Shown one piece after another: positions 11,425 to 54,221 of a DNA stretch of 64,000 nucleotides. Position 1 is the first letter of the stretch, and every line of letters begins with the position of its first letter. Made by a program: the position numbers and the translations under genes. The notes under the pieces were generated by a model that was not told the origin of the DNA, ran no database searches, and worked only from the letters and a program-made list of their open reading frames with translations. The stretch lies in the IMG/VR virus record IMGVR_UViG_3300031851_000001. One strand, 5' to 3'. This DNA is from a virus (lineage: Duplodnaviria; Caudoviricetes).

Positions 11425-11607
11425 CTACTTCTCTATTCGATCTAATCTATCGCAAACAACTGCCAATAGTTCTTTAATTTCCTGAACTTCATTACCTAAT
11501 TTAGTTACCTTACGGTGTAAAGCTCTTTCTTGTTTATATTTATTCAAACTTGCTGCGTCTGTACTTAAAACAGCTTTTGAAAATGTATGACGAACAACGT
11601 TTGACAT
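11425..11607 (-). CDS. Small conserved coiled-coil protein downstream of VrlC
   Basis: 60-aa ORF coupled to VrlC; similar small ORFs follow VrlC in marine T4-like phages (from memory). Confidence 0.65.
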   Translation of the reverse strand: MSNVVRHTFSKAVLSTDAASLNKYKQERALHRKVTKLGNEVQEIKELLAVVCDRLDRIEK

Positions 11608-26289: not shown

Positions 26290-26290
26290 T

Positions 26291-26707
26291 TTATCTAGTC
26301 CTCTCTAGAAATACGTCAACAGATATAGGTTGCTGATTATTTGATATGTAAAAATGAACCTGTATCTTTACAACGTTATCATCAATATTTGAAGTTACTA
26401 AAACGTCAATGATCTCTGCTCTTGGTTCGTATAAATCGAGCGTTGTACGTACTTGATCTTCTATCATTACTAACACACCGGGTGTTATATTTTCAAAAAG
26501 CATTGCCCGCAAATTACCACCAATTGCTGGCTGCATTAGTCTTTCGCCACGATCAGTCAATAACAAATTAATTATTGCTTCTTTTACCGCGTCTTCATCT
26601 TTGTTTACAGTAAGATCTAATGACAATGGGCTAACTTCAAGGCTTTTCTTAAAGTCAGAATATATAGAGATCTTCTTTTGTCTCTGTGATAATAAGTTTA
26701 CGACCAT
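26291..26707 (-). CDS. gp25: Baseplate wedge subunit gp25
   Basis: YSDF...DEDAVKEAIINLLLTDRGERLMQPAIGGNL...YEPRA. Confidence 0.93.
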   Translation of the reverse strand: MVVNLLSQRQKKISIYSDFKKSLEVSPLSLDLTVNKDEDAVKEAIINLLLTDRGERLMQPAIGGNLRAMLFENITPGVLVMIEDQVRTTLDLYEPRAEIIDVLVTSNIDDNVVKIQVHFYISNNQQPISVDVFLERTR

Positions 26708-26732
26708 TTGTCTGTGTCCAATGCTTTACAGT

Positions 26733-26740
26733 TATTTATA
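26733..26740 (-). promoter_or_regulatory. Late promoter TATAAATA
   Basis: Exact octamer upstream of gp25. Confidence 0.8.
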
Positions 26741-26755
26741 TGAAAATGTATCATC

Positions 26756-28429
26756 CTATCGTCTCGAATCTGGCCATGTAGCACAGTATGATCTTAAATC
26801 TAAGTGTATAAAACTATTATAATAGCCAACACCATTAAAACCTATTCCATTAGCAATATCTCGTATTGGGCTTTCATTGATTTCAGTTGGTGATAAGCAC
26901 GTTAAATCCCCTCTAGCCTGTCTAACTACTTCTTTAACTTTGGCGCCATCAATGTGATAACTACTCCAAGAAATGTCAACCGCTAATCCTGAAGTGTGCT
27001 GTGAAATTTTTGCAACAGTGCCATCAGATTTTCCACCATTTCTATCTAACATTCTCTGGTATAATACATCTTGAAATTCTTGTGATCTATAACCACTGTG
27101 CAAAATAAATGGTGCACTCATATTTGCAAGTTTGTGAAGTTGTATTAGTTTAGCTCGAGTTTTTAGCTGTAAGCCTTCCCAACCACCGCGTGTATTAGCA
27201 GATGATCCAACTTTAGGTTTAATAATAGGATGCTTTCCATCTTTAATTTGATCCCACGTTGGTATTTCACTATATTCTTTATCTAATTCAAATGCATTTC
27301 CAGCTACCGTAAACAAATCATCAGCTTCTTCAATCGCCTTTTTGCGCGTTTCATCATCAAAACGAATACCGCCAGCCTTTACGACTGCGGCTGTAGTAAC
27401 TCCAGAATTTGCCTTTAACATATCAATACCATTTAAAAATGTATCAGCAGTTTTATCTAATGGATCTTTAAGACCTTGGACTAACGTTTCAATACCTGCA
27501 GCGAAACCACATATGCGAGATATTAAAAACATAATTTCTTCAACTGAAGGATTATCAAACAATCCAACTGCGTAATCAATCATACCTTTAATTTTGTTTT
27601 CAATCTTTTTAATATTTTCTTCGCTAAAGAAACCCATAATACCTTCTTGCAAATTTACAAGTTTGGATTCAATAGTATTCTTTATAAAAGTTTCAGCTCT
27701 TTTAATAACTTCAGCTGGGTTAAAATTTTCAACAGCGCTTTTAATTTTATTTACAACACCCATAACAGCTTTAGTAACTTTTTCTTTGATTGCATCAATA
27801 AGTGCCTTTACTTTAATTGCATCAAATAAAGCTTTTATTGGATCTTTAATATTTCGTATTTTACTAATAAAACTAAGCGCATCTTGAAGAAGTCCATCTA
27901 TCTGTCCAATAATACCAAAGAATGCGCCAATAGCTCCAAACACGTTTGGCATTGTTCCACAAAATCCACCCATTATAGAAGTAGCAAATCCACCTCTTAA
28001 ATAATCATCGAGGCTTTGTAAAAACTTAGGTGGATTTTGATTTGCTATAAAGTTAGAAGTAATAGGAGTCATACTACTATCAGCAAGAAAAAGCGCATAC
28101 TCAACAGGGGTTAAAACAACATTACCACCAGCCGCATCACTTTTAATTTTAAGTATTTCGTATTTAGGTATTTGTTCTTTAGAAAACTCAGATTGTAATA
28201 CTGCATTAATTGAAGCAAGATTTGTATAAAAGTCAGGGAACTGAGCAACGGCACGAGTTAATGGATCACCTACGACACTGTTAGATATACTATCTTGAAA
28301 CTCTTTTTCAAAAACTTCTATTTGCGATAACGTAAATTCGCCATTACCATTTGATGTTGAAGTTGCCGAAGATTGTTCTACGCGTAATTCATCTGGAGTT
28401 AAGCAATCTACTGTTGTTTCTATACTCAT
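26756..28429 (-). CDS. Baseplate-associated protein with C-terminal peptidase M15 (cell-wall hydrolase) domain
   Basis: HSGYRSQ...SQHTSGLAVDI...GFNGVGYYNSFIHLDLR zinc D-Ala-D-Ala/L-Ala-D-Glu peptidase motifs; ~400-aa helical N-terminus. Confidence 0.75.
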   Translation of the reverse strand: MSIETTVDCLTPDELRVEQSSATSTSNGNGEFTLSQIEVFEKEFQDSISNSVVGDPLTRAVAQFPDFYTNLASINAVLQSEFSKEQIPKYEILKIKSDAAGGNVVLTPVEYALFLADSSMTPITSNFIANQNPPKFLQSLDDYLRGGFATSIMGGFCGTMPNVFGAIGAFFGIIGQIDGLLQDALSFISKIRNIKDPIKALFDAIKVKALIDAIKEKVTKAVMGVVNKIKSAVENFNPAEVIKRAETFIKNTIESKLVNLQEGIMGFFSEENIKKIENKIKGMIDYAVGLFDNPSVEEIMFLISRICGFAAGIETLVQGLKDPLDKTADTFLNGIDMLKANSGVTTAAVVKAGGIRFDDETRKKAIEEADDLFTVAGNAFELDKEYSEIPTWDQIKDGKHPIIKPKVGSSANTRGGWEGLQLKTRAKLIQLHKLANMSAPFILHSGYRSQEFQDVLYQRMLDRNGGKSDGTVAKISQHTSGLAVDISWSSYHIDGAKVKEVVRQARGDLTCLSPTEINESPIRDIANGIGFNGVGYYNSFIHLDLRSYCATWPDSRR

Positions 28430-29829
28430 TACCTCGGTCCTCCATTATTGTCATCACCGGCAGTTAAACCTCCACCGCCAACTGATACCGGATCTTCAGG
28501 ATTAATTGCGGTTGATTTTGTAACAGGCTCTGGCGCTTCAATAGGTGTAGCATCTTTTGAAGGTTCAGCAGGAAACGCGCTTTCTGGAGCAACTGAACTA
28601 CCATTTGCCATTTCTACATAATCGTCAATATGTACAGTAGTACCACTTACATGTACGAGGCCATCTGAACCCATACTTAATACACCATCACCTTTAATGT
28701 TAAGTGATGCAGTTCCGTTAATACGAGCAGCTTCAGAAAATATATCAAGTTCTGATGTAGCTTCCATAAAAGTAAGATCTGATTTTAAATGTAATTCGCT
28801 CAATGCTTCCATGTATATTTTGTCAGACTTAATATAAGTACCTTGACCAGATTGGAATTGAATTTCTTTACCAGCTTTTATAATAAGAGAACTAACATTC
28901 GCTTCAAGTTTTACATCGGCTGCTCTAATTTGAGCTTGTTCACCAGCAACTAAAGTAGATTGACCACCTACTGAAAGTAAATGATTACCATGAACTAATG
29001 TTTGCAAATCACCATCAATTTCTTCAGTCTTGTTACCTTTGACTTTAACATATGAATTACCATTGATAGTTACTGTACTAAAGCCACCGCCCATTCCACC
29101 AACTACTTTATGTTCGTTTCTATCTAATACGTCATACTGATCTGACACTGCTTTGTTGACAACAACACCGCGTGAGTCTATTGACATATAAGAACCTTCT
29201 TTATGATATATAAGAATTCTTTCATTGTTTGGCGTATCGTCTAGTTCAATAACATGAGCACCTGACTCAAAAACTCTATTAAAAGGATATTCTGATTGAA
29301 CTGACGGTGACGGCTCAGTCCAATTTCTTTCAGGATCGCCACCCATTTCAACATTTTGAACTCTTGCGCCGTTTTGTGATGAAACAGAAGTCTCGTCCAT
29401 ATATTCAACTCGTGAACGTCGCGAGTTTTGCGGTTGCCCAAAGTCTTCTGGCGCAGATCCACGAGCAAGTAGCTTAGCAGCTTTTGCTGGAATACTTCCC
29501 CACCCGTTTGCCTTTGGATTAATTACTTGTGTATATTGTGTTGGAATTAATCCAAGCACCATTGGTTGTTGAGCACCTTCGCCGTCAAGGAACATGCCAA
29601 ATACAAAACTATTTACTGCAGGCATTCCTAAACCGGGTGTACCATTTGGATCGTAATCGCCTTTAACAACAACGGCCCAAGGCAAGTCTTCTGTGCGAAT
29701 ATCTGTATTTAAACCGTGAATACCAAACGCACGAACTTTAACTCGTCCTTCTTTACGTGGATCTACGTTTTCCTCAATAACACCAACAAAGAATAGTGGG
29801 TTTCGTATTCCTTTACCATAATCAAACAT
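28429..29829 (-). CDS. gp5: Baseplate hub/central spike gp5 (no lysozyme domain)
   Basis: OB-fold FVGVIEENVDPRKEGRVKVRAFGIH..DLPWA; YPFNRVFESGAHVIELDDTPNNERILIYHKEGS; C-terminal beta-helix repeats. Confidence 0.9.
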   Translation of the reverse strand: MFDYGKGIRNPLFFVGVIEENVDPRKEGRVKVRAFGIHGLNTDIRTEDLPWAVVVKGDYDPNGTPGLGMPAVNSFVFGMFLDGEGAQQPMVLGLIPTQYTQVINPKANGWGSIPAKAAKLLARGSAPEDFGQPQNSRRSRVEYMDETSVSSQNGARVQNVEMGGDPERNWTEPSPSVQSEYPFNRVFESGAHVIELDDTPNNERILIYHKEGSYMSIDSRGVVVNKAVSDQYDVLDRNEHKVVGGMGGGFSTVTINGNSYVKVKGNKTEEIDGDLQTLVHGNHLLSVGGQSTLVAGEQAQIRAADVKLEANVSSLIIKAGKEIQFQSGQGTYIKSDKIYMEALSELHLKSDLTFMEATSELDIFSEAARINGTASLNIKGDGVLSMGSDGLVHVSGTTVHIDDYVEMANGSSVAPESAFPAEPSKDATPIEAPEPVTKSTAINPEDPVSVGGGGLTAGDDNNGGPR

Positions 29830-32938: not shown

Positions 32939-33406
32939 ATGAGGCACGAATTGGCATATAGCGGAAGGTTTCGACCAAAGAACCCAACTAAATACAAGGG
33001 TGACCCTACAAAGATTATTTATCGTTCCATGTGGGAATTTAAGTTTTTTCGTTATGTAGATGAACATCCTGATGTTGTATGGTGGCAAAGTGAAGAGGTA
33101 GTAATACCATATATGTCTCCTATTGACGGAAGAAGGCACAGGTATTTTCCTGATGTTATTGTTCATAGGAAAATAGCGAGTGGCGAACAGAAAACTTTGA
33201 TGATTGAAATTAAACCGGCTGCACAGACAAAGCCACCTGATAGAAGTAAAATGAAAACGAGTAAAGGTCGGGTATCCCGCAGATATCTAAACGAGGTAAA
33301 GACATATGGCGTCAACGAAGCGAAATGGAAAGCAGCTAGAAAATTCTGCGCTGACCGTGGTTGGGCATTTGAAATTTACACAGAACACGAACTGGGATTA
33401 AAGTAA
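32939..33406 (+). CDS. gp4: Head completion nuclease gp4 (start may be TTG at 32951)
   Basis: AYSGRFRPKNPTKYKGDPTKIIYRSMWE...WQSEE...RYFPD...IEIKP. GAGG at 32941-44 fits a TTG start. Confidence 0.93.
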   Translation: MRHELAYSGRFRPKNPTKYKGDPTKIIYRSMWEFKFFRYVDEHPDVVWWQSEEVVIPYMSPIDGRRHRYFPDVIVHRKIASGEQKTLMIEIKPAAQTKPPDRSKMKTSKGRVSRRYLNEVKTYGVNEAKWKAARKFCADRGWAFEIYTEHELGLK

Positions 33407-43350: not shown

Positions 43351-44211
43351 CTATTTTTTACCTTTGTATGTTTTTTGGTTTGAAGATTTATCCGCTGTTG
43401 CTGATAAACCCAGTGATCCAATTGCTCCCATGTTACCTTTAAAGATATACGAACCAATATGGTTGATTTGCATCCAAGGACACATCCATACCTTCATACC
43501 AGCTTCACGCGCTTTTTGACAAAAGAAGTAATCTTCACTCAAATAACGTTTGGTTCTGGGATCAATAATACAATCAAAGTAAGCCATAATTTCGTTAGAT
43601 CCGTCAAACTTTTCAGTTCTTGCATGATCTGGTTTATAACTATACTCTGGGTATGCTGCTTTGTATGTTTCAAATGTTTTTCGTGGAATACACATAAAGC
43701 CTGTACCACCTTCGCCAATTTCTAATGGCTGTGATAGTTGAAAGCTTGACATTTTATCAACTGGATTAAAAACATAATCAGCAGTGTATTGGTCTAATAG
43801 GAACGGGTTTTCATCGGCTTTACCTAGTTCAGCAGCTCGAGCAACCTTTTCCCATGCGATTGTTTTCTTAGGGTATGGACCTGTAACGATATTGTATTTT
43901 TCTGGATCTGATACTTGTACTGCAATCATACCAAAAATATCTCTTGGATCAAAAGCAATATCCGAATCAATAAACACTAAGTGAGTACAATCCGATCTCA
44001 TAAACTCATCGGCAACATAGTTACGTGCTCGTTGAATTAAACTTTCATTAAACAAATAGTAAAACTTTACAGTAATACCATTAGCTGCGCACATCATTGC
44101 AAGATCGGTACATGATTTAGTAAACGATCCACTGCAATTCCCTCCATACATTGGCGTCCCAATAAAGATTTTATATTGTTTTAGTTCGTCAACGCTGATT
44201 TCAATTTTCAT
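43351..44211 (-). CDS. GT-A fold glycosyltransferase-like protein
   Basis: IGTPMYGG, NESLIQRARN, DxD motif FIDSDI, YLSEDYFFC, C-terminal HIG. Confidence 0.75.
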   Translation of the reverse strand: MKIEISVDELKQYKIFIGTPMYGGNCSGSFTKSCTDLAMMCAANGITVKFYYLFNESLIQRARNYVADEFMRSDCTHLVFIDSDIAFDPRDIFGMIAVQVSDPEKYNIVTGPYPKKTIAWEKVARAAELGKADENPFLLDQYTADYVFNPVDKMSSFQLSQPLEIGEGGTGFMCIPRKTFETYKAAYPEYSYKPDHARTEKFDGSNEIMAYFDCIIDPRTKRYLSEDYFFCQKAREAGMKVWMCPWMQINHIGSYIFKGNMGAIGSLGLSATADKSSNQKTYKGKK

Positions 44212-44843
44212 ATTTCAATTTGCTCCAAATCGTTTTCTGCACGTGTAATGGCTTGAAGTCGCAGAATGTCTGCAGCCACGTCGTGTTTACTATCATGTGC
44301 TTTAAAATTATATTCCCATTTAGCAGTATTAGATACAGGAACAAAACCATTTATTTTAGGGAAATCAAACTTGGCATCAATAAATGTACGAGTATCACGT
44401 ACAGCCCAATACTTAAGGTAATCATTCATAAGTGAAGTCTTATTTGCGTATTGTGCTAATCTCTCTAGTATTACTGGATCAAAAGAATTAGATCTTGACC
44501 ACCATCGCTCAACCTTATTAGATGATCTTAAATAGTCAATTAACTTTTCCATAAATTGAACTGGTGTAAGATCGTTTTCTGATGGTTTTAGATTAACTCT
44601 TAATGCAGGTGGTTGGTCAAGCCACCATTGTAAATCACGATCGTTATATTTACATCCGTGGTTTTGTACTTGGTCTTTAATATTAAACTTAGCTTGTTGC
44701 ATGCCAAGTACCAACTCTTTAAAAGAATATGGATTTTCTGTAAATCGACTCCAATCAAAGGTCGTGTACGAGCAATCAATCGCTGGTACCTCGCGTGAGT
44801 TTTGACCAATGGTTTCGAAGTCAATAATAAAGTGTGTGCTCAT
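44208..44843 (-). CDS. dexA: DexA-like 3'-5' exonuclease (DEDDh)
   Basis: IIDFET, WSRSNSFDPVIL, WAVRDTRT, HDSKHDVAADI. Confidence 0.85.
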   Translation of the reverse strand: MSTHFIIDFETIGQNSREVPAIDCSYTTFDWSRFTENPYSFKELVLGMQQAKFNIKDQVQNHGCKYNDRDLQWWLDQPPALRVNLKPSENDLTPVQFMEKLIDYLRSSNKVERWWSRSNSFDPVILERLAQYANKTSLMNDYLKYWAVRDTRTFIDAKFDFPKINGFVPVSNTAKWEYNFKAHDSKHDVAADILRLQAITRAENDLEQIEI

Positions 44844-46045
44844 TATATAAATGCCTCTAGTGTATCTGCTTTAGTAATATAGTCGGCCTTCTGACTATGA
44901 TTATACTGCATAATGTAGTCCGTGTCAACCATTTTTGCGTTACCTTCAATATATTTTTTCACTTCGCCTGCCATGTCTTTTGCAGTTTGAACTGGAACGT
45001 TTTGGCAAATATGGTTAGATGATTGCTTTGGATTAAGCAATTCAAAGTCTTGTGGCAATCCCATAATAGTCATAGCTTCTCTATATGTAATGAAACGATC
45101 TTCATCTGGGTGTGTTAACATTTTAGGATAATGTCCAACAAAAGCACCAATATAATCTTTAGGAATAGTTACACCACGTTTCATAATGTTACCACCTGAT
45201 TTTAGCTTTTCATATTTACGCATAGATTTTTCAGCTTCGTTATCATAGCCATGCTTAGCCATCCATTCAGAAACCTGTTTAAAGTTATATCCATTACGTT
45301 CAATATATGTAAATACACATAAACCAGATTTAGTAAACTGATTGTCAACTAATTCAGAATGTTCTTTGTGTGTTCTACCACCATGTATCTCTTCTAAAAC
45401 AAACTTATAGTAAGGATTATCTGATGGAGTCTTATTACTGATTGGTTCCATTTGAAAGTTTGATGTTACCTCACGTATTACTTCTTCAATAGGTTTGTGT
45501 GGTCTATTGAAATATCCAAGCAATGGTGTTTGTGTATCTTTCCAAAAGAAATAAAACGAACGCTCACGTACTTGTGGTGCGCCATGTAATAGAGATCTTG
45601 TTCTATATACAGACATGGTGTAACCGTTTTTCTTACCAATTTCTCTTAATTGGGCTCTAACGTTTGTACCAATTTTACCTGCAAATGCTGGAGCATTCTC
45701 ACCCCAGAACACTTTTGGTTTATATTCGCCTAAGATATATTCTGCAGTCTTTCCCATCCACTGGTTATTTGGATTATGATCGCCATAACCGTGAGACATC
45801 ATAGATAAACCAGCACACGGACAAACAGATGATACCACATCAGCTCTTTCATTTACAGGTGGTGCTTCGCCTTGGTCCAACAGATAATAATTAATTCTAT
45901 TATCATAATAATTTAAAATGTGGCTATCGTTTGCTTGAAAACCATCGTACGACATAAAGTGTAGTGGTTCAGTTCCAAATGCTTGTTGTGATCCAATAGT
46001 TTCGCCACCAATTAATGGAACAATAGATGCGTGTGTAATACTCAT
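44843..46045 (-). CDS. DNA cytosine-C5 methyltransferase homologue
   Basis: Catalytic CPCAGLS, motif VI GENA, motif VIII GAPQVRER, motif IX RFITYREA; motifs I and X are divergent (IVPLIGG, CQNVP). Confidence 0.85.
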   Translation of the reverse strand: MSITHASIVPLIGGETIGSQQAFGTEPLHFMSYDGFQANDSHILNYYDNRINYYLLDQGEAPPVNERADVVSSVCPCAGLSMMSHGYGDHNPNNQWMGKTAEYILGEYKPKVFWGENAPAFAGKIGTNVRAQLREIGKKNGYTMSVYRTRSLLHGAPQVRERSFYFFWKDTQTPLLGYFNRPHKPIEEVIREVTSNFQMEPISNKTPSDNPYYKFVLEEIHGGRTHKEHSELVDNQFTKSGLCVFTYIERNGYNFKQVSEWMAKHGYDNEAEKSMRKYEKLKSGGNIMKRGVTIPKDYIGAFVGHYPKMLTHPDEDRFITYREAMTIMGLPQDFELLNPKQSSNHICQNVPVQTAKDMAGEVKKYIEGNAKMVDTDYIMQYNHSQKADYITKADTLEAFI

Positions 46046-46062
46046 TATTTACCTTTCTGATA

Positions 46063-47316
46063 TTAGAAGAATGACTCTAAGCCAATCGTTGGCTTTTCTG
46101 GAATTGGAAATTCTTCTAAGTTTGGCGCAACATAATTTGGATTTATGCTGGTCATAATCTTATTATTGAGGAATGTACCGTCATAATATTCTGGTTTTAA
46201 AATTGTTTTTTGTAGTAGTTCTAACAAATGATTATATTTTGCTGGATCGTCCTTTAACATTTGAATACGCTCAGCTAATTGTTCTGGAGATTTAACTCTT
46301 AGAAAATCAGGAATATTTGTATGTCTTTGCTCGTCGTAAGTTGGATGTAAAAATGGAATTACACCAGCGTGGATCATTTCAATATATTTTGAAGTTACCC
46401 AACCTTTTTTAATTGGAATGATAAAAGTAAATTTAACATCTTGTAGTTTTTCTTGCAGCGCGTCAATTTTAAGCGATCCTTTAAACCGCGTATCACCTTC
46501 CATAATTTCTTCTGACCATTTGCCATAAATGTCAACATCCTCATTATGGTCGAGGATCCATTCTTTTAACAATTTATAACGCGATGGTTTGCCTTCGTTT
46601 AATACAATCATAAAGTCTGTATTACGATTTCTATTTATGTCCGTTCCATGTTCGTAATCTAAACAAAAAGCTGTTTCCATACCTGCATATACAGATTTAA
46701 CTGATATTGGTGTACGTGTTTGGTCTTCATACGAATTAATTTTATTTGAAATATATTCATAATCGTATTGACCAAGTGACATTGTTGGTGGATGCATCAT
46801 ATCTCTGGCTTGATTCATAACATACCGTGGATCATTTACAATTTCAACATAGTTTGGTCTACAATCATTTAACCACGATGTAATACCAGTCGTATAACCT
46901 TTTGTCATATCAAGTACTGTTGATATTTGAGTTGCGTCGTTTACTTTAACAATTCTATCGGGTATCGTAACAGAACCAACTTGACCAACCATTAGTACAG
47001 TATAATCAAGTTCAATATTATTATTTTTGAGATAGTTTTTTACATGGTCATAATAATCTTGGTTGTAATGCTCAGGTCCAATAGACCTTTTGTTCCAAAC
47101 ATCTACTACGTTGTTATATGGAAATAATTCGTATTGCTCTGCTTCATTTAAATAACCATAATCAGTACGTCCAATAATATGGAATGTAATATCTGGGTTA
47201 AGGTTTGCTAATGCGCGTAGCGTACAGCTTGCCTCGTTGTCGCCACCAATTGGCGAATATTTATTTCTCTGGAACTTTACCGATTTGCCAAGTTTTCCAA
47301 ATCCAATGTGTTTCAT
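46063..47316 (-). CDS. DNA beta-glucosyltransferase-like glycosyltransferase (GT-B)
   Basis: WVTSKYIEMIHAGVIPFLHPTYDEQRH...LRVKSPEQLAERIQMLK parallels the recalled C-terminus of T4 BGT (ITLRVWETMAS..VMLID.EFDTKHRI...VNNRAELIDRVNELK); N-terminal MKHIGFGKLG. Confidence 0.7.
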   Translation of the reverse strand: MKHIGFGKLGKSVKFQRNKYSPIGGDNEASCTLRALANLNPDITFHIIGRTDYGYLNEAEQYELFPYNNVVDVWNKRSIGPEHYNQDYYDHVKNYLKNNNIELDYTVLMVGQVGSVTIPDRIVKVNDATQISTVLDMTKGYTTGITSWLNDCRPNYVEIVNDPRYVMNQARDMMHPPTMSLGQYDYEYISNKINSYEDQTRTPISVKSVYAGMETAFCLDYEHGTDINRNRNTDFMIVLNEGKPSRYKLLKEWILDHNEDVDIYGKWSEEIMEGDTRFKGSLKIDALQEKLQDVKFTFIIPIKKGWVTSKYIEMIHAGVIPFLHPTYDEQRHTNIPDFLRVKSPEQLAERIQMLKDDPAKYNHLLELLQKTILKPEYYDGTFLNNKIMTSINPNYVAPNLEEFPIPEKPTIGLESFF

Positions 47317-47319
47317 AAT

Positions 47320-47679
47320 CTAATCCTTCATCAATTCTATAAACGTATAGGGAAGCATGGCCTTGTCATCAATATAGTAAACACCATATGGTTTACCGTA
47401 TTGTATTTCATCGTAAGGTACTTTATGCTCATTTAACCACGTTGTAGTAATATCACCAACATCCTCTATGACTTTATTTATGTCTCCACGATGAGTCAAC
47501 ATTCTTCGCGCAGTACTAATAACAATTTTATATTCAAGCTTTTTTGCTTTAGTAAGTGCTTCTATCATTTCAGGGATTGGCTGTGCTAATCCATATTTTC
47601 TATATGTATCCTTTTCGTCATGATTAGGAATACATATAGTATCGTCTAAATCAACGACTAATGTTTTTTGCGTAGTCAT
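47320..47679 (-). CDS. HAD-superfamily phosphatase (EcbF/BcbF capsule-biosynthesis type)
   Basis: VDLDDTI, ISTARRM, WLNEHKVPYDEIQYGKP, YYIDDKA. Confidence 0.85.
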   Translation of the reverse strand: MTTQKTLVVDLDDTICIPNHDEKDTYRKYGLAQPIPEMIEALTKAKKLEYKIVISTARRMLTHRGDINKVIEDVGDITTTWLNEHKVPYDEIQYGKPYGVYYIDDKAMLPYTFIELMKD

Positions 47680-49120
47680 TTACGTAATCTTTCATTCTTT
47701 GTTGTCTGTCTGGACAATCATAGTGTAATTTAATGCAGGTAGCAATCAATAAAGCACCACCATCAATTATTTCATTATATACCGTCGGATAGTATTTGTC
47801 AACTAGTTTACTAAATGACCAGGAAACATAATCAGGATATTTGTTTCCTGTAACTAATTCAGAATAGCCATGATATAAGTCATGTGATAGTTTACACATA
47901 TCATATAAGTAATCACCACCGCAGCCAACATGGTCTCCGTACGAACCGCGAGGATCAAGCAATGTGATACTATCATTATATGGATTATATAGAATATTAC
48001 CAAAGTGTAAATCGCCATGCATTGCCGAAACAGGTTCAGCTTTATCAAGGCAGCGTTGTGCGACACCGTTATAAAAATCTTTAGAACATGTTAGACGTTC
48101 CGATGTTTTATTGACCCACATCTTTTCAGCATTATCATGGAAGTCAGCAGTAAATTCTAATGTGGCTTTACCATGGAAGTGAGTACGCATAGCCAGAATA
48201 ACTTTTTCAATTAAGTAATCAATAGTACTATTAGAAATCTCTTCGTGTGCAAACAAATCAGATAATAGAATTCCTGACTCGTATGACATTGACAATGCGT
48301 AATCGTCTTTAAGAATTTTAGGAACAAACATACTCTGAACTGGATTGAGAGTTTCAAACCAATTCTTTTCGTTCATAATTGTTCTTACAGCAAATGTATT
48401 GTTATGAGATGGTATTTTAGTAATGGCGTTGATGTCTGATCTATATTCAAACGAATTAAACTCACGTGCCTTAAATGTAAGGAACTCTGCACAAGTTTTA
48501 TGGTACGATGCGATATCGCCAATGTCATACCAACGATCAGTGTTTATATTATTAAAGGCACCATATAATTCAAGCGCATCGGATATTTCATAACCATCAG
48601 TATCATAAAAACAATCTGAAGCTTTTATCCCATCACTAAAACTATATAAACCGACAAGCGCGTCAGCATTTGGAACTGTGTTTTTTGGTTTATTAAAATA
48701 GTTGTTACCATCCCACATGCACCAAGCAAAGTGATCATCGACTTGTTTAGTTAATAGAAAATCAGAACCAAGTGGCAGCTCATCCTCAAGGATAATAGCA
48801 TCACCTAACCAAACAACAAGTGGCAATGATTTATCATCTAAGCTTTCAATACCAACTGATATAGCATCACGGGGACCATTAAGAGATCCCTGCTTTACGC
48901 ATTTAACTACATCGTATTTTTTAGCCCATTCTCTGATGTCATTATGTTTACCATCAACGACAACGATTTGGTTTATTCCTGTCGTATTATTATAAATGGA
49001 TTCAATAATATACTCGATAGTTGGTTTGCCGTGTACACGTACCATTGCCTTTGAACAGTTTGATGTTAACGGTTTAAGACGTGTGGCTTCACCTGCTGCC
49101 GGTATTACTATGTTTATCAT
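47651..49120 (-). CDS. Sugar nucleotidyltransferase fused to an APH/choline-kinase-like domain
   Basis: N-terminal VIPAAGEATRLKPLT...KAMVRVHGKP...WLGD; C-terminal HGDLHFGNIL...LLDPRG...DYLYDMCKL. Confidence 0.85.
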   Translation of the reverse strand: MINIVIPAAGEATRLKPLTSNCSKAMVRVHGKPTIEYIIESIYNNTTGINQIVVVDGKHNDIREWAKKYDVVKCVKQGSLNGPRDAISVGIESLDDKSLPLVVWLGDAIILEDELPLGSDFLLTKQVDDHFAWCMWDGNNYFNKPKNTVPNADALVGLYSFSDGIKASDCFYDTDGYEISDALELYGAFNNINTDRWYDIGDIASYHKTCAEFLTFKAREFNSFEYRSDINAITKIPSHNNTFAVRTIMNEKNWFETLNPVQSMFVPKILKDDYALSMSYESGILLSDLFAHEEISNSTIDYLIEKVILAMRTHFHGKATLEFTADFHDNAEKMWVNKTSERLTCSKDFYNGVAQRCLDKAEPVSAMHGDLHFGNILYNPYNDSITLLDPRGSYGDHVGCGGDYLYDMCKLSHDLYHGYSELVTGNKYPDYVSWSFSKLVDKYYPTVYNEIIDGGALLIATCIKLHYDCPDRQQRMKDYVNDYAKNISR

Positions 49121-49751
49121 AATTTAATTTCCATTCACTATATTCATCTTCTAACATTGCCCACTGGCAACGAGTGTATTTATGTTCCGCTGTCTTATCC
49201 CATATGATCCACATATAGGCAATCATACCACCAATTTGGTCTTTTTTATCAACAGGTTCTAATATGTTAGAATCAAATCTTACTCTGTCTGATAGATATA
49301 TTATATCACTAGGTGGGTTAGATGTAAACAGTTTATTTCGCTTCTTACCTTCAAGAAACGTTAAACGTAAAAACATTGCAGTGTAATCGTATTCGTCTGT
49401 CCATTTTTCTGCTAGTTTGCGTGGCAAATCTTTATGGTATGGAGGGTTAGTGATTACACCTTTAACGTCTTTATCTTTTGGTAACTCTAATGCGTCGTAT
49501 GGTGTATTTATGTTAGTGAGAGTATTAGGATATACGTTAAGGTCGTAGGATATAACATCGTGGCCATTACGTAAAAGCTCTGATGAAATATGCCCACGAC
49601 CAGCGCATGGCTCTATAACTTTATGCGGTACATTACCGTATTTACATAGAATATATGTTGCTAAGGGAGGAGTAGGATAAAAATCATTCACCGTTCTATT
49701 TGGATCATTCTTTTTAACGCCAACATATATGTCCGTTAAGTTATTCGCCAA
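49089..49751 (-). CDS. Amino (N6-A/N4-C) DNA methyltransferase
   Basis: DFYPTPP, EPCAGRGHIS, catalytic ITNPPY. Confidence 0.85.
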   Translation of the reverse strand: MANNLTDIYVGVKKNDPNRTVNDFYPTPPLATYILCKYGNVPHKVIEPCAGRGHISSELLRNGHDVISYDLNVYPNTLTNINTPYDALELPKDKDVKGVITNPPYHKDLPRKLAEKWTDEYDYTAMFLRLTFLEGKKRNKLFTSNPPSDIIYLSDRVRFDSNILEPVDKKDQIGGMIAYMWIIWDKTAEHKYTRCQWAMLEDEYSEWKLNYDKHSNTGSR

Positions 49752-50253
49752 GTGAAGTTACCCGTACATTTGCTTCTTTAAACATAGGTAAACTCTTTTC
49801 TTCCCATACCTTTTGCCAATCACCTTTAACACTTTTATCTGATGATATGACTACACGTTTAATACCCGCTTGAATAACAAGTTTGGTACAATCAGAACAT
49901 ATAGGTAATCCATATACGTATAAAGTAGAGTCTTTTAGTGATACACCGGCATATAACGCATTCATAAGTGCATTCATTTCAGCATGTACTACAAGACTAT
50001 GTTTGGTAGGACGATCGTTTAAACGATCTTCAGTATCTTCAATACCTTTTGGAAACCCATTATAGCCTGTAGCCAATATGCGTCTATCATCATTAACAGC
50101 AACACAACCAATTTTACTTGAAGGGTCTTTGCTCCAATCAGCGATCATAGTCGCTAATGACATAAAACGGTTATCCCATTTAAGGCGGTTTGTATCGTCT
50201 TCTTTCATTCGTCTTCCCATATAAGCATAATAGCTTTCCCTACTTGCACTCAT
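49741..50253 (-). CDS. cd: dCMP deaminase
   Basis: SKDPSSKIGCV, TGYNGFP, VHAEMNA, PICSDC. Confidence 0.95.
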   Translation of the reverse strand: MSASRESYYAYMGRRMKEDDTNRLKWDNRFMSLATMIADWSKDPSSKIGCVAVNDDRRILATGYNGFPKGIEDTEDRLNDRPTKHSLVVHAEMNALMNALYAGVSLKDSTLYVYGLPICSDCTKLVIQAGIKRVVISSDKSVKGDWQKVWEEKSLPMFKEANVRVTSLGE

Positions 50254-50948
50254 TGTTTTACCAAATCAAAGTGACGTTCATAGGTATGTAAGTTCATTAC
50301 CTGCCACGTAAGCATACCCTTTTGAATAGTAAAGTGCTTATTGCCGGGAAGTTTACATTGTTCATTCCATTGAGCAACAAACTTATCCATAAGATATTGT
50401 GCCCACGCATAATCATTCTTGTAGCCAAACACAACATCATTAGAACGCATTTGAGATACCATATGTAAGATACCATCACGAATATAGAATGTTTGTGCAT
50501 TAGTACAGATGAAATCAGACTTACCACCTTCGTCAAACTCAACCCAAATAGATGGACGATTATAAATCATTTGAGCACGACGGCTATCAGGGTTACTCCA
50601 TAGTTCATCAAAAGCATTTTGGAATTGGTTATGATATTTTTTAGAGAATACTAAATGGCCATAGTTGGAATTAATATTACCGTGCGGATCTGCTGAATAT
50701 TGCCATGCGGCAGGAGCAGGTTTGGATGGTCCATAGATATCATTAATGTTTGTTGATTGCGACTCATACCATGCCAACTCCGCATTAATATATTCTTGTA
50801 CAGGTTTACCAAAGATAGCAGGTTCATCAGCGACAAACGATGCACCAAGTAGCTCGATTGTTTTTGCACCAGTTTTATCTGTAGTAAATCGTTCAGCTTT
50901 TAGTTCGTCAATAAAATAATTACGAATGTCACTTACGCTATTCATCAT
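50250..50948 (-). CDS. gp42: dCMP hydroxymethyltransferase (T4 gp42 homologue); start at ATGATG 50948/50945
   Basis: DKTGAKTIELLGASFVADEP, INSNYG, NPDSRR, SDFICTN, MRSNDVVFGYKNDYAW, LHTYERHF closely match my recollection of T4 gp42, including the dCMP-specifying Asp in ND. Confidence 0.92.
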   Translation of the reverse strand: MMNSVSDIRNYFIDELKAERFTTDKTGAKTIELLGASFVADEPAIFGKPVQEYINAELAWYESQSTNINDIYGPSKPAPAAWQYSADPHGNINSNYGHLVFSKKYHNQFQNAFDELWSNPDSRRAQMIYNRPSIWVEFDEGGKSDFICTNAQTFYIRDGILHMVSQMRSNDVVFGYKNDYAWAQYLMDKFVAQWNEQCKLPGNKHFTIQKGMLTWQVMNLHTYERHFDLVKQ

Positions 50949-51261
50949 CTTCTCCTTTAAATCTATCATCGGTATCAATTGGATCAGACTCAAGTGTTGT
51001 CATACAAAGGATCATCATTTGAGTTAATGCGTGTGATACGTGTGGTAAGCCAGACTCTGGGTCAATATCTTCACCAGAAATATACGCCAAAAGGTGACGT
51101 TGAATAGAAGAGTAATGACGAGATACTGGAAATTTATTTATGTCATGCCGCCAATTGTTTTCACCATACTTTTCAGCACCAAAACCAAATACCTTAGCAG
51201 CTTCAATGATAGCTTCTGGCGGAACTAAATGGATTTTTGGTTTGTCATTATCAAATTTCAT
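50938..51261 (-). CDS. dATP/dGTP diphosphohydrolase-family protein (DUF5664)
   Basis: KFDNDKP..HLVPP...FGAEKYGENNW...RHL...DPESGLPHVSHA. Confidence 0.85.
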   Translation of the reverse strand: MKFDNDKPKIHLVPPEAIIEAAKVFGFGAEKYGENNWRHDINKFPVSRHYSSIQRHLLAYISGEDIDPESGLPHVSHALTQMMILCMTTLESDPIDTDDRFKGEDDE

Positions 51262-51273
51262 ATACTTGTTTCC

Positions 51274-51900
51274 TTAAACATTGTGGTTATATATTGTGCG
51301 ATCATCACCGCGTGTATTGTAGAAATACTTTATACGTCGTACACCATCGTGGTCAGTTGTCCAGTTATTAGAGAACTTTTCTTGACATGGTCTGAGGTTT
51401 TGGCGTATCGTATCAAAAGGTACAACAGCGCGCCAACGAACGTCGTAAGTGTTTTCAGATAGTTTATTATAACAGCCAAAGATGATAATGTCAACACATT
51501 TTGGGTACAATCTGCGATTTCTTGCTAATTTATTTGCCATATAGTTTGGTATAGTCAACCATTTCTTTTCCATATGGTTTGGTAATGTTCCGGGATCTTG
51601 TGAGTTTTTAACCTCAGCTCTCCAACGGTTCCACTCAACATCCCAATTATGAGTTTCAGGTTTGGTGTAGTCAAATTCAGCAGGGTTCATAACAGCACCT
51701 TGACGTACTAAAGCAAACTCTAGTATAACGCCTGCATAAGTATGTGCTAAGACGGTTGAATGACTTCTTCCACGTCGACGGGTTGGACACTCAAACATTT
51801 CTTGTGCCATAGTTTGAATGTGAGAAACCTCACCCTCGTTTAACTCGAGGATAAGGGGTTCTGGGAGTTTTAGCGGGAGTTGTAAAGAAGACTCAGACAC
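51274..51900 (-). CDS. Hypothetical protein, possible PD-(D/E)xK nuclease (GTG start)
   Basis: E (GVILEFAL)...WDV...AEVK pattern. Confidence 0.5.
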   Translation of the reverse strand: MSESSLQLPLKLPEPLILELNEGEVSHIQTMAQEMFECPTRRRGRSHSTVLAHTYAGVILEFALVRQGAVMNPAEFDYTKPETHNWDVEWNRWRAEVKNSQDPGTLPNHMEKKWLTIPNYMANKLARNRRLYPKCVDIIIFGCYNKLSENTYDVRWRAVVPFDTIRQNLRPCQEKFSNNWTTDHDGVRRIKYFYNTRGDDRTIYNHNV

Positions 51901-53255: not shown

Positions 53256-54221
53256 TTAAATTGGATTAATTACATAATGAATAAGTAATACCAACGCTAC
53301 TGAGGCGCCAAGACCAACCATCATTTTACCAAAGTCTTTAGCAACTAATGGAAATACTGATTTGGTTTTTCTTTTACCAAAGTATGTTGCCATAGCCAAC
53401 TCACGTCCTGCTAATAGCCCAACGAAAACCCATGTTGTACTCATAGGAATATCATTTAGTTCTTTAAAGAAATATAAACATAGCCAGTAAAACAAGTCAA
53501 TCAATGTCGCTGATCTTACATATCGAGTATTATGTTTCTCTAATACAATTTGTTGGATTTTACCACCACGTTCTCTAAACATAAAGAACAATCCACCAAC
53601 AAATACAAATGATATAAGTATCATTAAATCTACTGGTACTTGACGTGGTAAGAACACCGCAATGTTAGCAATGTCATGCGATAACCAAGTATACCATAAA
53701 CCACCAGTAGCAAGCCACTGAGCAATACGCCAAAACTTTTTATTGCCTTCACTTATAGGTGCCGTTTCATCATACCATCTACCAAAGTATTTGTGAATTA
53801 TAAACCATACTGCATAAGCAAACCCTGCAGCTACACCATAACCCATAATGGATTTCATTAGCATCTTTTCTAATACAAAGGTGCTAGCAAATACTGATAA
53901 GACTAAGAATGATGTTGAAACTGGTACACCTAATCGAGTCAATGCAACTAGAATTGCAGGTGCTGCAGCATGGTACCATTGTACTTCTTGCCACGGGATT
54001 TTATTCAAACGACCATAACTAATGTCACCGCCATTCATCATCCAACCATACCAAAGTGTGGCTAAAAGAACAGAGGACGCTGCTATCCATAATGTTTTAT
54101 AACTAAATCTCTCATTGTTTGATGCCATCCAAGTACCGAGAGTTTGTACTGAATCATTTGCTATAACTGCGTAAGCAGCAAGCAGGAATCCGATTAGACT
54201 CCACATTGTGAGTAGTTCCAT
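53256..54221 (-). CDS. PiT/PHO4-like inorganic phosphate transporter
   Basis: ~9-10 hydrophobic segments; IANDSVQ and SHDIANIAVFLP resemble the two PiT GANDVANA signatures; PVSTS and PMSTT repeats. Confidence 0.7.
   Translation of the reverse strand: MELLTMWSLIGFLLAAYAVIANDSVQTLGTWMASNNERFSYKTLWIAASSVLLATLWYGWMMNGGDISYGRLNKIPWQEVQWYHAAAPAILVALTRLGVPVSTSFLVLSVFASTFVLEKMLMKSIMGYGVAAGFAYAVWFIIHKYFGRWYDETAPISEGNKKFWRIAQWLATGGLWYTWLSHDIANIAVFLPRQVPVDLMILISFVFVGGLFFMFRERGGKIQQIVLEKHNTRYVRSATLIDLFYWLCLYFFKELNDIPMSTTWVFVGLLAGRELAMATYFGKRKTKSVFPLVAKDFGKMMVGLGASVALVLLIHYVINPI

What the first reader, a model, noticed from the sequence alone, without database searches (positions are those of the whole stretch)
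43351..51261. Candidate new cytosine hypermodification system (hmC plus phage-made sugar, two glycosyltransferases, two MTases)
Seen, contiguous and mostly coupled: DUF5664 dNTP diphosphohydrolase, gp42-type dCMP hydroxymethylase, dCMP deaminase, amino-MTase, nucleotidyltransferase-kinase fusion, HAD phosphatase, BGT-like GT-B, C5-MTase homologue, DexA and a GT-A glycosyltransferase. Established: T4 makes hmdC with gp42 and glucosylates it with host UDP-glucose, needing no sugar-activation genes. Arabinosylating T4-likes (e.g. RB69) instead carry their own sugar-nucleotide enzymes. Inference: this phage makes its own non-glucose NDP-sugar and attaches it to hmC, possibly extending it to a disaccharide with the second GT. 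No sugar isomerase was seen in the window, and the combination with a C5-MTase homologue matches no pathway I recognise. It would work as anti-restriction/anti-CRISPR armour.
Basis: partly seen in the sequence, partly recalled or inferred. Interest (0 to 1): 0.85.

Follow-up and report, generated by a model that had tools for sequence, protein, structure and literature searches.

The report
Sugar-decorated hydroxymethylcytosine module, marine T4-like phage
An uncultured marine T4-like phage carries genes that should replace cytosine with hydroxymethylcytosine and coat it with a sugar the phage activates itself. The sugar genes sit in a slot that related phages fill with other sugar kits, and an unexplained cytosine-methylase look-alike always lies next to that slot.

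Summary
In detail: all ten minus-strand genes exist and match the families named. The thymidylate-synthase homologue is a T4 gp42-type dCMP hydroxymethylase. It keeps Asp at the position that is Asn in the 5-hydroxycytosine synthases of RB69-type phages. The nucleotidyltransferase-kinase fusion and the small HAD phosphatase are distant full-length homologues of the RB69/JS98 pair, which the literature equates with AfhE/AfhF, the makers of UDP-arabinose. The 417-aa GT-B models confidently, and its best solved match is T4 beta-glucosyltransferase.

In about 50 related marine contigs the frame MazG-like/TS/dCMP deaminase ... C5-MTase homologue/DexA/GT-A-like/gp45 is fixed. The stretch between it is swapped for other kits: AGT-like or TAGT-like DNA glycosyltransferases, UDP-galactopyranose mutase, and epimerase plus dehydrogenase. 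So this is a DNA-glycan diversification hot spot.

Best reading: hmC glycosylated with a phage-activated sugar, probably a pentose. The sugar's identity is not shown.

- The GT-A-like gene is conserved across the lineage, including phages without a gp42 homologue, so the disaccharide idea is unsupported.
- The missing isomerase is not informative.
- The pathway logic was published in 2025-26.

The C5-MTase homologue keeps its catalytic and adenosine-binding residues, and its role is open. The scan's index lists first-reader notes on this same stretch; none shown to me came from other DNA. Verdict: new variant of a known kind.

The parts
50938..51261 (-). MazG/MazZ-like all-alpha dNTP diphosphohydrolase (107 aa); candidate dCTPase that feeds dCMP to the hydroxymethylase
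   Evidence: PF18909 1.5e-28, phrog_801 4e-32. It lies directly upstream of the TS homologue in related loci. Substrate is inferred. No PDB sequence match.
50250..50993 (-). gp42-type dCMP hydroxymethylase (5hmdCMP synthase)
   Evidence: E 1.1e-60 to T4 dCMP hydroxymethylase 1b49. Motif SDFICTN holds the catalytic Cys and Asp at ThyA-143. Motif MRSNDVVFGYKNDYAW holds Asp at ThyA-169 and Asp at ThyA-177. All 25 homologues in related loci keep the same pattern.
49741..50253 (-). dCMP deaminase
   Evidence: PF00383 4.9e-22, phrog_174 2e-48.
49089..49751 (-). Small amino-(N6A/N4C) DNA methyltransferase
   Evidence: phrog_799 1.3e-37. EPCAGRG and NPPY motifs in the translation. No Pfam, NCBIfam or PDB hit. 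Also present in relatives with other cassettes (cluster c6).
47651..49120 (-). Bifunctional sugar-1-phosphate nucleotidyltransferase (N-terminal) and APH-like sugar kinase (C-terminal); AfhE-like architecture
   Evidence: PF00483 1.5e-11; weak kinase hits at 340-422; HGDLHFGN catalytic loop. 24% identity, E 4e-18 over 415 residues to JS98 gp042 (RB69 ORF052c-like). 26-27% identity to the phage XG4 and Denvervirus fusions.
47320..47679 (-). HAD-IIIA sugar-phosphate phosphatase (AfhF/EcbF-BcbF type)
   Evidence: TIGR01689 7.6e-24; phrog_1238 6.6e-22; DLDDT motif. 32% identity, E 2e-11 to JS98 gp041 (RB69 ORF051c-like). 59% identity to an unannotated ORF in Stenotrophomonas phage DLP_6.
46063..47316 (-). 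GT-B glycosyltransferase; probable DNA (hmC) glycosyltransferase
   Evidence: AF2 pLDDT 90.1. Top Foldseek PDB hit is T4 beta-glucosyltransferase 1qkj, E 7e-9. 45% identity to XG4 and 31% to Denvervirus proteins in the same cassette. AGT-like or TAGT-like genes occupy the equivalent position in relatives.
44843..46045 (-). C5-cytosine DNA methyltransferase homologue with a deviant motif I (VPLIGG); role unresolved
   Evidence: PF00145 7.4e-17. Fold matches CmoX, M.HhaI and M.HaeIII. Family-invariant PC, ENAP, QxRxR, QNVP, D57 and D/E34. Present directly downstream of the variable cassette in all related loci.
44208..44843 (-). DexA-like 3'-5' exonuclease
   Evidence: PF16473 8.4e-13, phrog_255 4.6e-28. 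Conserved in the frame.
43351..44211 (-). GT-A-like protein (phrog_1574), conserved across the lineage next to gp45; probably not part of the hmC pathway
   Evidence: phrog_1574 6e-60. DSD motif; Atlas neighbours with Anp1/Glycos_transf_2. 44-55% identical homologues between gp46 and gp45 in DLP_6, Cr30 and phiM12, where no gp42-type TS was found.
51466..51494 (-). Perfect sigma-70 consensus promoter upstream of the MazG-like gene; one of four 12/12 matches on the coding strand (others at 52912-52884, 47802-47774, 44928-44900)
   Evidence: By my own rough estimate from base composition, about 0.02 perfect matches are expected in this stretch. This fits T4-type early transcription.

Best explanation
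This is a cytosine hypermodification module of an uncultured marine T4-like phage.

Step 1, before replication. The MazG-like diphosphohydrolase (inferred dCTPase) supplies dCMP. The gp42-type enzyme converts dCMP to 5-hydroxymethyl-dCMP. After phosphorylation it is polymerised, so phage DNA carries hmC. The dCMP deaminase diverts part of the dCMP to dTMP synthesis.

Step 2, sugar supply. The kinase domain of the fusion protein, the HAD phosphatase and the nucleotidyltransferase domain turn a host sugar phosphate into an NDP-sugar. The route is sugar-phosphate, then 1,x-bisphosphate, then sugar-1-phosphate, then NDP-sugar, as in the published AfhE/AfhF route to UDP-arabinose. The sugar is probably a pentose. 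Arabinose is the leading guess but is not shown.

Step 3, after replication. The BGT-like GT-B flips out hmC and transfers the sugar to its hydroxyl group.

The amino-MTase adds a separate N6A (or N4C) mark.

The sugar genes and the GT form an exchangeable cassette in a fixed slot, which gives related phages different DNA glycans.

The adjacent C5-MTase homologue is a constant companion of that slot. Most likely it is an adenosyl-cofactor-dependent enzyme that acts on cytosines left unmodified. This is inferred.

Shown here: the family memberships, diagnostic residues, folds, synteny and cassette exchange. Inferred: every enzymatic activity and the product.
For: - The TS homologue matches T4 dCMP hydroxymethylase at E 1e-60. 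It has Asp at ThyA positions 143, 169 and 177. PMC13326640 reports D169N as diagnostic for 5hoC synthases, and JS98 gp039 shows that Asn. All 25 relatives keep Asp.
- The NTase-kinase is homologous over both domains to JS98 gp042 (E 4e-18). The HAD matches JS98 gp041 (E 2e-11) and TIGR01689.
- The GT-B model has pLDDT 90 and its top PDB match is T4 BGT.
- The same HAD, NTase-kinase and GT-B lie next to a TS-family gene in phage XG4 and in Enterococcus Denverviruses. In Agathobaculum phages a GT-B homologue lies with a HAD-containing 366-aa protein next to a gene annotated as dUMP hydroxymethylase.
- In about 50 related marine loci the flanks are fixed. The slot instead holds T4 AGT-family (PF11440, 2.7e-32) or TAGT-family (PF20691, 3e-13) DNA glycosyltransferases, together with other sugar-nucleotide enzymes: UDP-galactopyranose mutase, epimerase plus UDP-glucose dehydrogenase, and a HAD-containing ~340-aa protein (weak kinase-like hits in one homologue) plus cytidylyltransferase.
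- The genes lie among replication genes and behind perfect sigma-70-type promoters.
Against: - No chemistry was measured. The sugar is unknown.
- The NTase-kinase is only 24% identical to the AfhE class, so specificity cannot be carried over. Homologous cassettes occur in phages of Gram-positive hosts. These hosts, to my knowledge, do not make Kdo, so arabinose-5-phosphate may be lacking there.
- The GT-B has no sequence-level match to any characterised DNA glycosyltransferase. BGT tops the fold list only narrowly, ahead of OGT/HMW1C-type protein glycosyltransferases.
- The MazG-like protein belongs to a family named for dATP/dGTP hydrolysis, so dCTPase activity is a guess. If dCTP is not removed, substitution would be partial.
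- No dNMP kinase was identified in the stretch studied.
- A conserved C5-MTase homologue is hard to reconcile with complete hmC substitution.
Confidence: 0.68

Rival explanations
1. Same pathway, with the sugar specifically D-arabinofuranose. That would give arabinosyl-hmC, the structure first proposed for RB69 in 2018 and since revised to arabinosyl-5hoC. Host KdsD would supply arabinose-5-phosphate.
For: The AfhE/AfhF-like pair is homologous over its full length. JS98 also lacks any SIS isomerase, so host supply of arabinose-5-phosphate is plausible for such phages. The published mechanism is in PMC13326640, section 27.
Against: Identity is only 24-32%. The GT-B is unrelated in sequence to the RB69-type arabinosyltransferase (E 0.026). 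The closest cassettes include phages of Enterococcus and Agathobaculum, where arabinose-5-phosphate is not expected (my own knowledge).
Confidence: 0.3
2. The sugar module and the GT-B (and/or the GT-A-like protein) glycosylate something other than DNA, such as virion proteins, host lipopolysaccharide or a small molecule. In that case phage DNA carries only hmC and methyl marks.
For: The fold hits also include protein O- and N-glycosyltransferases (OGT, HMW1C/NGT) at similar E-values. The HAD belongs to a capsule-biosynthesis subfamily. The GT-A-like gene occurs in phages where no gp42 homologue was found. Earlier notes report further GT clusters elsewhere in the genome (untested).
Against: This GT-B family was found beside a TS-family gene in every isolate genome examined that has a full-length match. 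AGT or TAGT families, described as DNA glycosyltransferases, occupy the same slot in relatives. The setting is replication genes with early-type promoters.
Confidence: 0.1
3. The C5-MTase homologue is not a methylase of bare cytosine. It is a core catalyst of the hypermodification. It could install hmC on residual C in DNA, or activate hmC through the Cys-C6 adduct for exchange of the hydroxyl group. It might use a SAM analogue or no SAM at all.
For: It is invariably adjacent to the glycan cassette. Homologues also lie near dCMP-specific TS homologues in XG4 and S-TIM5-type cyanophages. Motif I deviates from FxGxGG in the whole family. Side reactions of C5-MTases with aldehydes and with hmC are known from the literature (my own knowledge, not checked here).
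Against: The residues that bind the adenosine part of SAM in M.HhaI and CmoX are invariant: the acid after strand 2, Asp after strand 3 and Asn of motif X. This points to ordinary cofactor binding. The CmoX signature is absent. There is no direct evidence.
Confidence: 0.2

Closest known systems
T4 hmC glucosylation system (gp56 dCTPase, gp42 dCMP hydroxymethylase, alpha- and beta-glucosyltransferases)
   Same: The gp42 orthologue is about 50% identical and has the same active-site signature. A nucleotide-pool enzyme lies upstream. The transferase is a BGT-like GT-B fold. The setting is a T4-like replication module (gp45/44/62/RegA).
   Different: T4 uses host UDP-glucose and has no sugar-activation genes. 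Here a kinase, a phosphatase and a nucleotidyltransferase are encoded. The GT-B has no sequence similarity to BGT or AGT. A C5-MTase homologue is present.
Arabinosyl-5-hydroxycytosine pathway of RB69, DLP3 and HY126 (AfhE/AfhF, 5hodCMP synthase; PMC13326640)
   Same: The bifunctional NTase-kinase and the small HAD phosphatase are distant homologues of the RB69-type pair. The cluster layout also pairs them with a TS homologue and GT-B enzymes.
   Different: The TS homologue keeps Asp169, so it is the hydroxymethylase type and not the flavin-dependent hydroxylase. No arabinose-5-phosphate isomerase and no nucleotide kinase lie in the cluster. The GT-B is unrelated in sequence. The sugar is unverified.
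Uncharacterised cassettes in Pseudoalteromonas phage vB_Psh_XG4 (PP712099) and Enterococcus Denverviruses (phages 9183, Planchet)
   Same: The same genes occur together: TS homologue, HAD, NTase-kinase and GT-B, with GT-B identity of 45% and 31%. XG4 also has the C5-MTase homologue (30%) and DexA.
   Different: These are different phage lineages and hosts. XG4 has a second GT-B. Denverviruses show no C5-MTase homologue in the region examined. I found no report of the DNA chemistry of either.
TET/5mYOX-dependent DNA glycosylation clusters (C5-MT, TET, TAGT; PMC8256090, bioRxiv 2023.12.21.572611), for example Stenotrophomonas phage DLP_6
   Same: DLP_6 has the same HAD (59%) and NTase-kinase (24%) next to a TAGT-family gene and a Tet_JBP oxygenase. 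TAGT-family genes also fill the slot in some marine relatives. A C5-MTase-family gene accompanies the glycosyltransferase.
   Different: No TET/JBP oxygenase is present here. hmC comes from the pre-replicative gp42 route, so a methylase is not needed to make the hmC precursor.
CmoX DNA cytosine C5-carboxymethyltransferase (PDB 8yf3; PMC12783734)
   Same: It is the top structural match of the C5-MTase homologue. It is a phage C5-MTase-fold enzyme repurposed for hypermodification.
   Different: The CmoX signature is absent. The window protein has VCPC instead of SPPC, and Asn instead of Arg at the HhaI-N304 position. No CmoA was seen among the genes examined.

Membership tests
T4 gp42-type dCMP hydroxymethylase | Strong sequence similarity to T4 gp42 | tested here: met
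   E 1.1e-60 to 1b49 over residues 19-245.
T4 gp42-type dCMP hydroxymethylase | Catalytic Cys, Asp at ThyA-177 (dCMP specificity) and an acidic residue at ThyA-143 (water access) | tested here: met
   Motifs SDFICTN and KNDYAW align with T4 SDFMCTN and RNDYAW. The criteria come from PMC13326640, section 24.
5hodCMP synthase (RB69 gp48 type) | Asn at ThyA-169 (D169N) | tested here: not met
   The window has SND (Asp). JS98 gp039 has SQN. The criterion comes from PMC13326640, section 28.
AfhE-type bifunctional sugar kinase / NDP-sugar pyrophosphorylase | N-terminal nucleotidyltransferase fused to a C-terminal APH-like kinase, with full-length homology to the RB69 ORF052c class | tested here: met
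   Pfam domains. 24% identity, E 4e-18 over residues 1-415 to JS98 gp042.
AfhE-type bifunctional sugar kinase / NDP-sugar pyrophosphorylase | Phosphorylates arabinose-5-phosphate and forms UDP-arabinose | not testable with these tools
   This needs an enzyme assay. Identity is too low to carry specificity over.
AfhF-type HAD phosphatase | Small HAD with a DxDxT nucleophile motif, homologous to the RB69 ORF051c class and adjacent to the fusion gene | tested here: met
   DLDDT motif. 32% identity, E 2e-11 to JS98 gp041. TIGR01689 7.6e-24. The gene overlaps the fusion gene by 29 nt.
Complete phage arabinose pathway (as in RB69 and DLP3) | Phage-encoded arabinose-5-phosphate isomerase (SIS domain) | tested here: not met
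   None among the window ORFs I scanned. It is also absent from the whole genomes of JS98, XG4, DLP_6 and phage 9183, so it is not obligatory.
DNA beta-glucosyltransferase-like GT-B | GT-B two-Rossmann fold closest to T4 BGT | tested here: met
   Model pLDDT 90.1, pTM 0.90. 1qkj ranks first at E 7e-9, TM 0.54/0.63.
DNA beta-glucosyltransferase-like GT-B | Acts on hmC in DNA | not testable with these tools
   Support comes only from context.
C5-cytosine DNA methyltransferase | Motifs IV (PC), VI (ENV), VIII (QxRxR) and X (GN.V), and the fold | tested here: met
   CPC, ENAP, QVRER and QNVP are invariant in the family. PF00145 scores 62 bits against a cut-off of 22. Fold hits to M.HhaI and M.HaeIII.
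C5-cytosine DNA methyltransferase | Motif I FxGxGG (SAM pocket) | tested here: not met
   The motif reads VPLIGG, invariant as PLIGG in 20 homologues. The Pfam match begins only at residue 67. The adenosine-contact acids (D/E34, D57) are conserved, so cofactor binding remains likely.
CmoX carboxymethyltransferase | SPPC motif and Arg replacing HhaI Asn304; CmoA partner | tested here: not met
   The window has VCPC and Asn349. No CmoA among the cluster or flanking genes scanned. Criteria from PMC12783734.
TET/5mYOX-dependent hmC glycosylation | A Tet_JBP dioxygenase in the cluster | tested here: not met
   No PF12851 hit among the cluster or flanking proteins. DLP_6 does have one.
GT-A glycosyltransferase (286-aa protein) | DxD motif and nucleotide-diphospho-sugar transferase fold | tested here: inconclusive
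   DSD motif. One weak Pfam hit below the cut-off. Atlas neighbours carry Anp1/GT2.

The most novel reading that the evidence does not exclude
The invariant C5-MTase homologue is a new kind of DNA-level enzyme of pre-replicative hmC pathways. It could be a DNA cytosine hydroxymethylase that 'patches' residual C, or an enzyme that uses the Cys-C6 adduct to derivatise hmC. It would work together with an exchangeable glycan cassette. A very abundant group of uncultured marine T4-like phages would then carry hmC glycans, and perhaps a further cytosine derivative, that have not been described.
Probability: 0.2. Interest if true: 0.85.

Novelty: new variant of a known kind. Interest (0 to 1): 0.62.

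Why it matters
DNA glycosylation protects phages from restriction enzymes and CRISPR nucleases, and it exposes them to Type IV systems.

This locus pairs the classical T4 hmC route with an AfhE/AfhF-like sugar-activation pair. In the literature I read, that pair is described with 5-hydroxycytosine. The locus also shows that one fixed genomic slot in an abundant marine phage lineage is a swap site for at least seven different sugar and transferase kits. Database searches found more than 2,000 homologues of the flanking C5-MTase-like gene, on contigs of up to about 220 kb.

This gives a ready set of candidate DNA glycosyltransferases and NDP-sugar enzymes for test and for tool development. It predicts wide glycan diversity on marine viral DNA, which would also bias sequencing and restriction-based surveys. 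It also frames a clear puzzle: why does a cytosine-5 methylase look-alike always accompany a pathway that already blocks C5?

Tried and rejected
- Megablast of the 7.9-kb stretch against 50,697 phage records found nothing. Distant blastn found only about 70% matches of the TS gene to T-even gp42 genes and one GT-B match to phage XG4.
- No whole genome is held for this window. I therefore could not look genome-wide for an isomerase, a dNMP kinase or a second TS.
- The 5-hydroxycytosine reading was rejected on the D169 criterion.
- The CmoX (carboxymethyl) reading of the C5-MTase homologue was rejected on its signature residues.
- The TET route was rejected because no oxygenase is in the cluster.
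- The idea that the GT-A-like protein adds a second sugar to hmC was rejected as unsupported.
- The 560-aa protein next to the C5-MTase homologue in cyanophage S-TIM54 is not an NTase-kinase and has no Pfam hit.
- Profile comparison of the GT-B family with the AGT-like and 365-aa proteins of other cassettes showed no homology. The cassettes are non-orthologous replacements.
- PDB sequence searches for the amino-MTase and the MazG-like protein gave nothing usable.
- The 171-aa protein after RegA is an ordinary trimeric dUTPase, not an obvious dCTPase.
- Literature searches found no report on the DNA of Denverviruses, and none that characterises this marine lineage.

Full report
**Observation.** The stretch 43351-51261 holds ten minus-strand ORFs that overlap by 1-56 nt or are 3-18 nt apart.
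- a PF18909 MazG/MazZ-like diphosphohydrolase
- a thymidylate-synthase homologue
- a dCMP deaminase
- a small methyltransferase with EPCAGRG and NPPY motifs
- a nucleotidyltransferase fused to an APH-like kinase
- an EcbF-BcbF-type HAD phosphatase
- a GT-B
- a PF00145 C5-methylase homologue
- a DexA-like exonuclease
- a phrog_1574 protein with a DxD-type motif

The flanks are a T4-type replication module: gp45, gp44, gp62, RegA and dUTPase on one side, and DNA polymerase, gp47 and UvsW on the other. The DNA has no close relative among 50,697 phage records. The best clamp-loader matches are 50-57% identical, to Stenotrophomonas phage DLP_6, Methylophilales phage Melnitz and cyanomyoviruses. No whole genome is held.

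**Which base.** A 2026 paper showed that RB69-type phages do not make arabosyl-hmC. They make arabinosylated 5-hydroxycytosine, using a TS homologue whose diagnostic change is Asp169 to Asn in E. coli ThyA numbering (PMC13326640). The window protein matches T4 dCMP hydroxymethylase at E 1e-60. It reads MRSNDVVFGYKNDYAW where T4 reads MRSNDVVFGFRNDYAW. That gives Asp at 169, Asp at 177 (dCMP specificity) and Asp at 143. JS98, an RB69-type phage, has Asn at 169. All 25 homologues in related loci keep Asp.

**Sugar supply.** The 489-aa fusion aligns over both domains with JS98 gp042, the RB69 ORF052c class (24% identity, E 4e-18). The HAD aligns with JS98 gp041, the ORF051c class (32%, E 2e-11). 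The paper equates these classes with AfhE and AfhF of phage HY126. In that phage the route runs from arabinose-5-P to the 1,5-bisphosphate, then arabinose-1-P, then UDP-arabinose. The window proteins keep the kinase catalytic loop (HGDLHFGN) and the HAD nucleophile motif (DLDDT). So the same reaction logic is the best inference. At this distance the sugar cannot be named. The missing isomerase says little, because the complete genomes of JS98, XG4, DLP_6 and phage 9183 have no SIS gene either.

**Transferase.** The 417-aa protein has only weak Pfam hits. With 32 homologues it folds at pLDDT 90, and T4 beta-glucosyltransferase is its best solved match. Protein glycosyltransferases of the OGT/HMW1C type follow closely, so the fold alone does not fix the acceptor. 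Context does better. In the isolate collection this GT family was found in phage XG4, four Denvervirus records and two Agathobaculum phages. In each lineage examined it lies with a HAD-containing gene and next to a TS-family gene. XG4 and the Denverviruses also carry the NTase-kinase.

**Cassette hot spot.** The C5-methylase homologue has more than 2,000 metagenomic relatives, mostly marine, on contigs of up to 221 kb. In 43 IMG/VR loci and several ENA/JGI contigs the order is conserved: MazG-like, TS, dCMP deaminase, a variable stretch of 1-5.5 kb, then C5-MTase homologue, DexA, GT-A-like, gp45, gp44, gp62, RegA. Only near-identical relatives and a few others carry the window's cassette. The others carry one of the following:
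- a T4 AGT-family protein, a HAD-containing ~340-aa protein (weak kinase-like hits in one homologue) and a cytidylyltransferase-like protein
- an AGT-family or TAGT-family protein with an NAD-epimerase and a UDP-glucose dehydrogenase
- an unassigned 365-aa protein with UDP-galactopyranose mutase
- a lone GT4 or a lone TAGT
- five proteins with no family match

AGT and TAGT are families described as DNA glycosyltransferases. The GTs of different cassettes share no detectable sequence homology. This is strong comparative evidence that the slot encodes DNA glycosylation and that the glycan is diversified by cassette exchange.

**GT-A-like gene.** It is 55% identical to a DLP_6 protein and 44-52% identical to proteins of Cr30 and phiM12. 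In those phages it also lies just upstream of gp45. A search found no gp42-type TS in those three genomes. It is thus a lineage-conserved gene with an unknown acceptor. The proposed disaccharide extension has no support.

**C5-methylase homologue.**
- The fold is that of C5-MTases. The top hits are the carboxymethyltransferase CmoX, M.HhaI and M.HaeIII.
- The PC, ENAP, QxRxR and QNVP motifs are invariant. So are the acidic residues that bind the adenosine of the cofactor in M.HhaI and CmoX.
- Motif I is PLIGG throughout the family.
- The CmoX signature (SPPC, and Arg for Asn304) is absent.
- Homologues also lie near dCMP-specific TS homologues in XG4 and in S-TIM5-type cyanophages.
- I consider an adenosyl-cofactor-dependent enzyme acting on cytosines that escape substitution the most likely role. 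A new hmC-directed chemistry remains possible, at about 0.2.

**Other points.**
- Four perfect sigma-70 consensus promoters lie on the coding strand. By my own rough estimate about 0.02 are expected by chance. This fits early expression.
- The amino-MTase also occurs in relatives with other cassettes, so it is a separate mark.
- DLP_6 combines the same HAD and NTase-kinase with a TAGT-family gene and a Tet_JBP oxygenase. The sugar module therefore serves both the pre-replicative and the TET routes to hmC.

**Verdict.** Each step has a published analogue. The combination of gp42-type hmC with an AfhE/F-like sugar module, the exchange slot and the constant C5-MTase homologue make this a new variant of a known kind. 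It is worth bench work.

Noticed in passing
L007 (Stenotrophomonas phage DLP_6, KU682439.2 record 24235-28525): This is a misannotated hypermodification cluster. AAY80_028 is a TAGT-family glycosyltransferase. An unannotated HAD ORF lies at 25142-25450. AAY80_029 is an NTase-kinase fusion. AAY80_030, annotated 'SNF2 DNA repair protein', carries a Tet_JBP oxygenase domain (PF12851, 8e-19).
   Followed up: partly
L008 (Cyanophage S-TIM54, OP053362.1 record 142150-146239): The annotated 'ThyA' has Asp at the ThyA-177 position (dCMP-type) and Cys at 143. It lies two genes from a homologue (32%) of the window's C5-MTase-like protein. This may be another uncharacterised cytosine modification in S-TIM5-type cyanophages.
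   Followed up: partly
window 52912-52884, 51494-51466, 47802-47774, 44928-44900 (minus strand): Four perfect 12/12 TTGACA-17-TATAAT promoters, all on the coding strand and two of them inside genes. They look like T4-type early promoters that give nested transcripts.
   Followed up: no
L057 10403-11176 (JGI 3300043325 contig): A GIY-YIG/NUMOD3 homing-endonuclease gene lies between the glycosyltransferases and the C5-MTase homologue. The homologue is called as only 300 aa there. Mobile endonucleases may drive the cassette exchange.
   Followed up: no
L004/L037/L042 (for example L004 7547-7912): In several relatives a small protein with weak UDG-superfamily/DUF1643 similarity lies between the dCMP deaminase and the glycan cassette.
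   Followed up: no
window 32939-33406 (+): A TnsA-like endonuclease N-terminal domain protein (PF08722, 4e-23) lies among tail and baseplate genes.
   Followed up: no
window 1-8562 and 11607-16967 (minus strand): Two very long ORFs (more than 2,854 aa, open at the window edge, and 1,786 aa) lie upstream of a protein with a Peptidase_S74 chaperone domain (10246-11418). They are presumably giant tail fibres.
   Followed up: no
window 53256-54221 (-): A 321-aa ORF with no Pfam or PHROG hit. A 71% identical homologue was seen in one related locus, L015.
   Followed up: no
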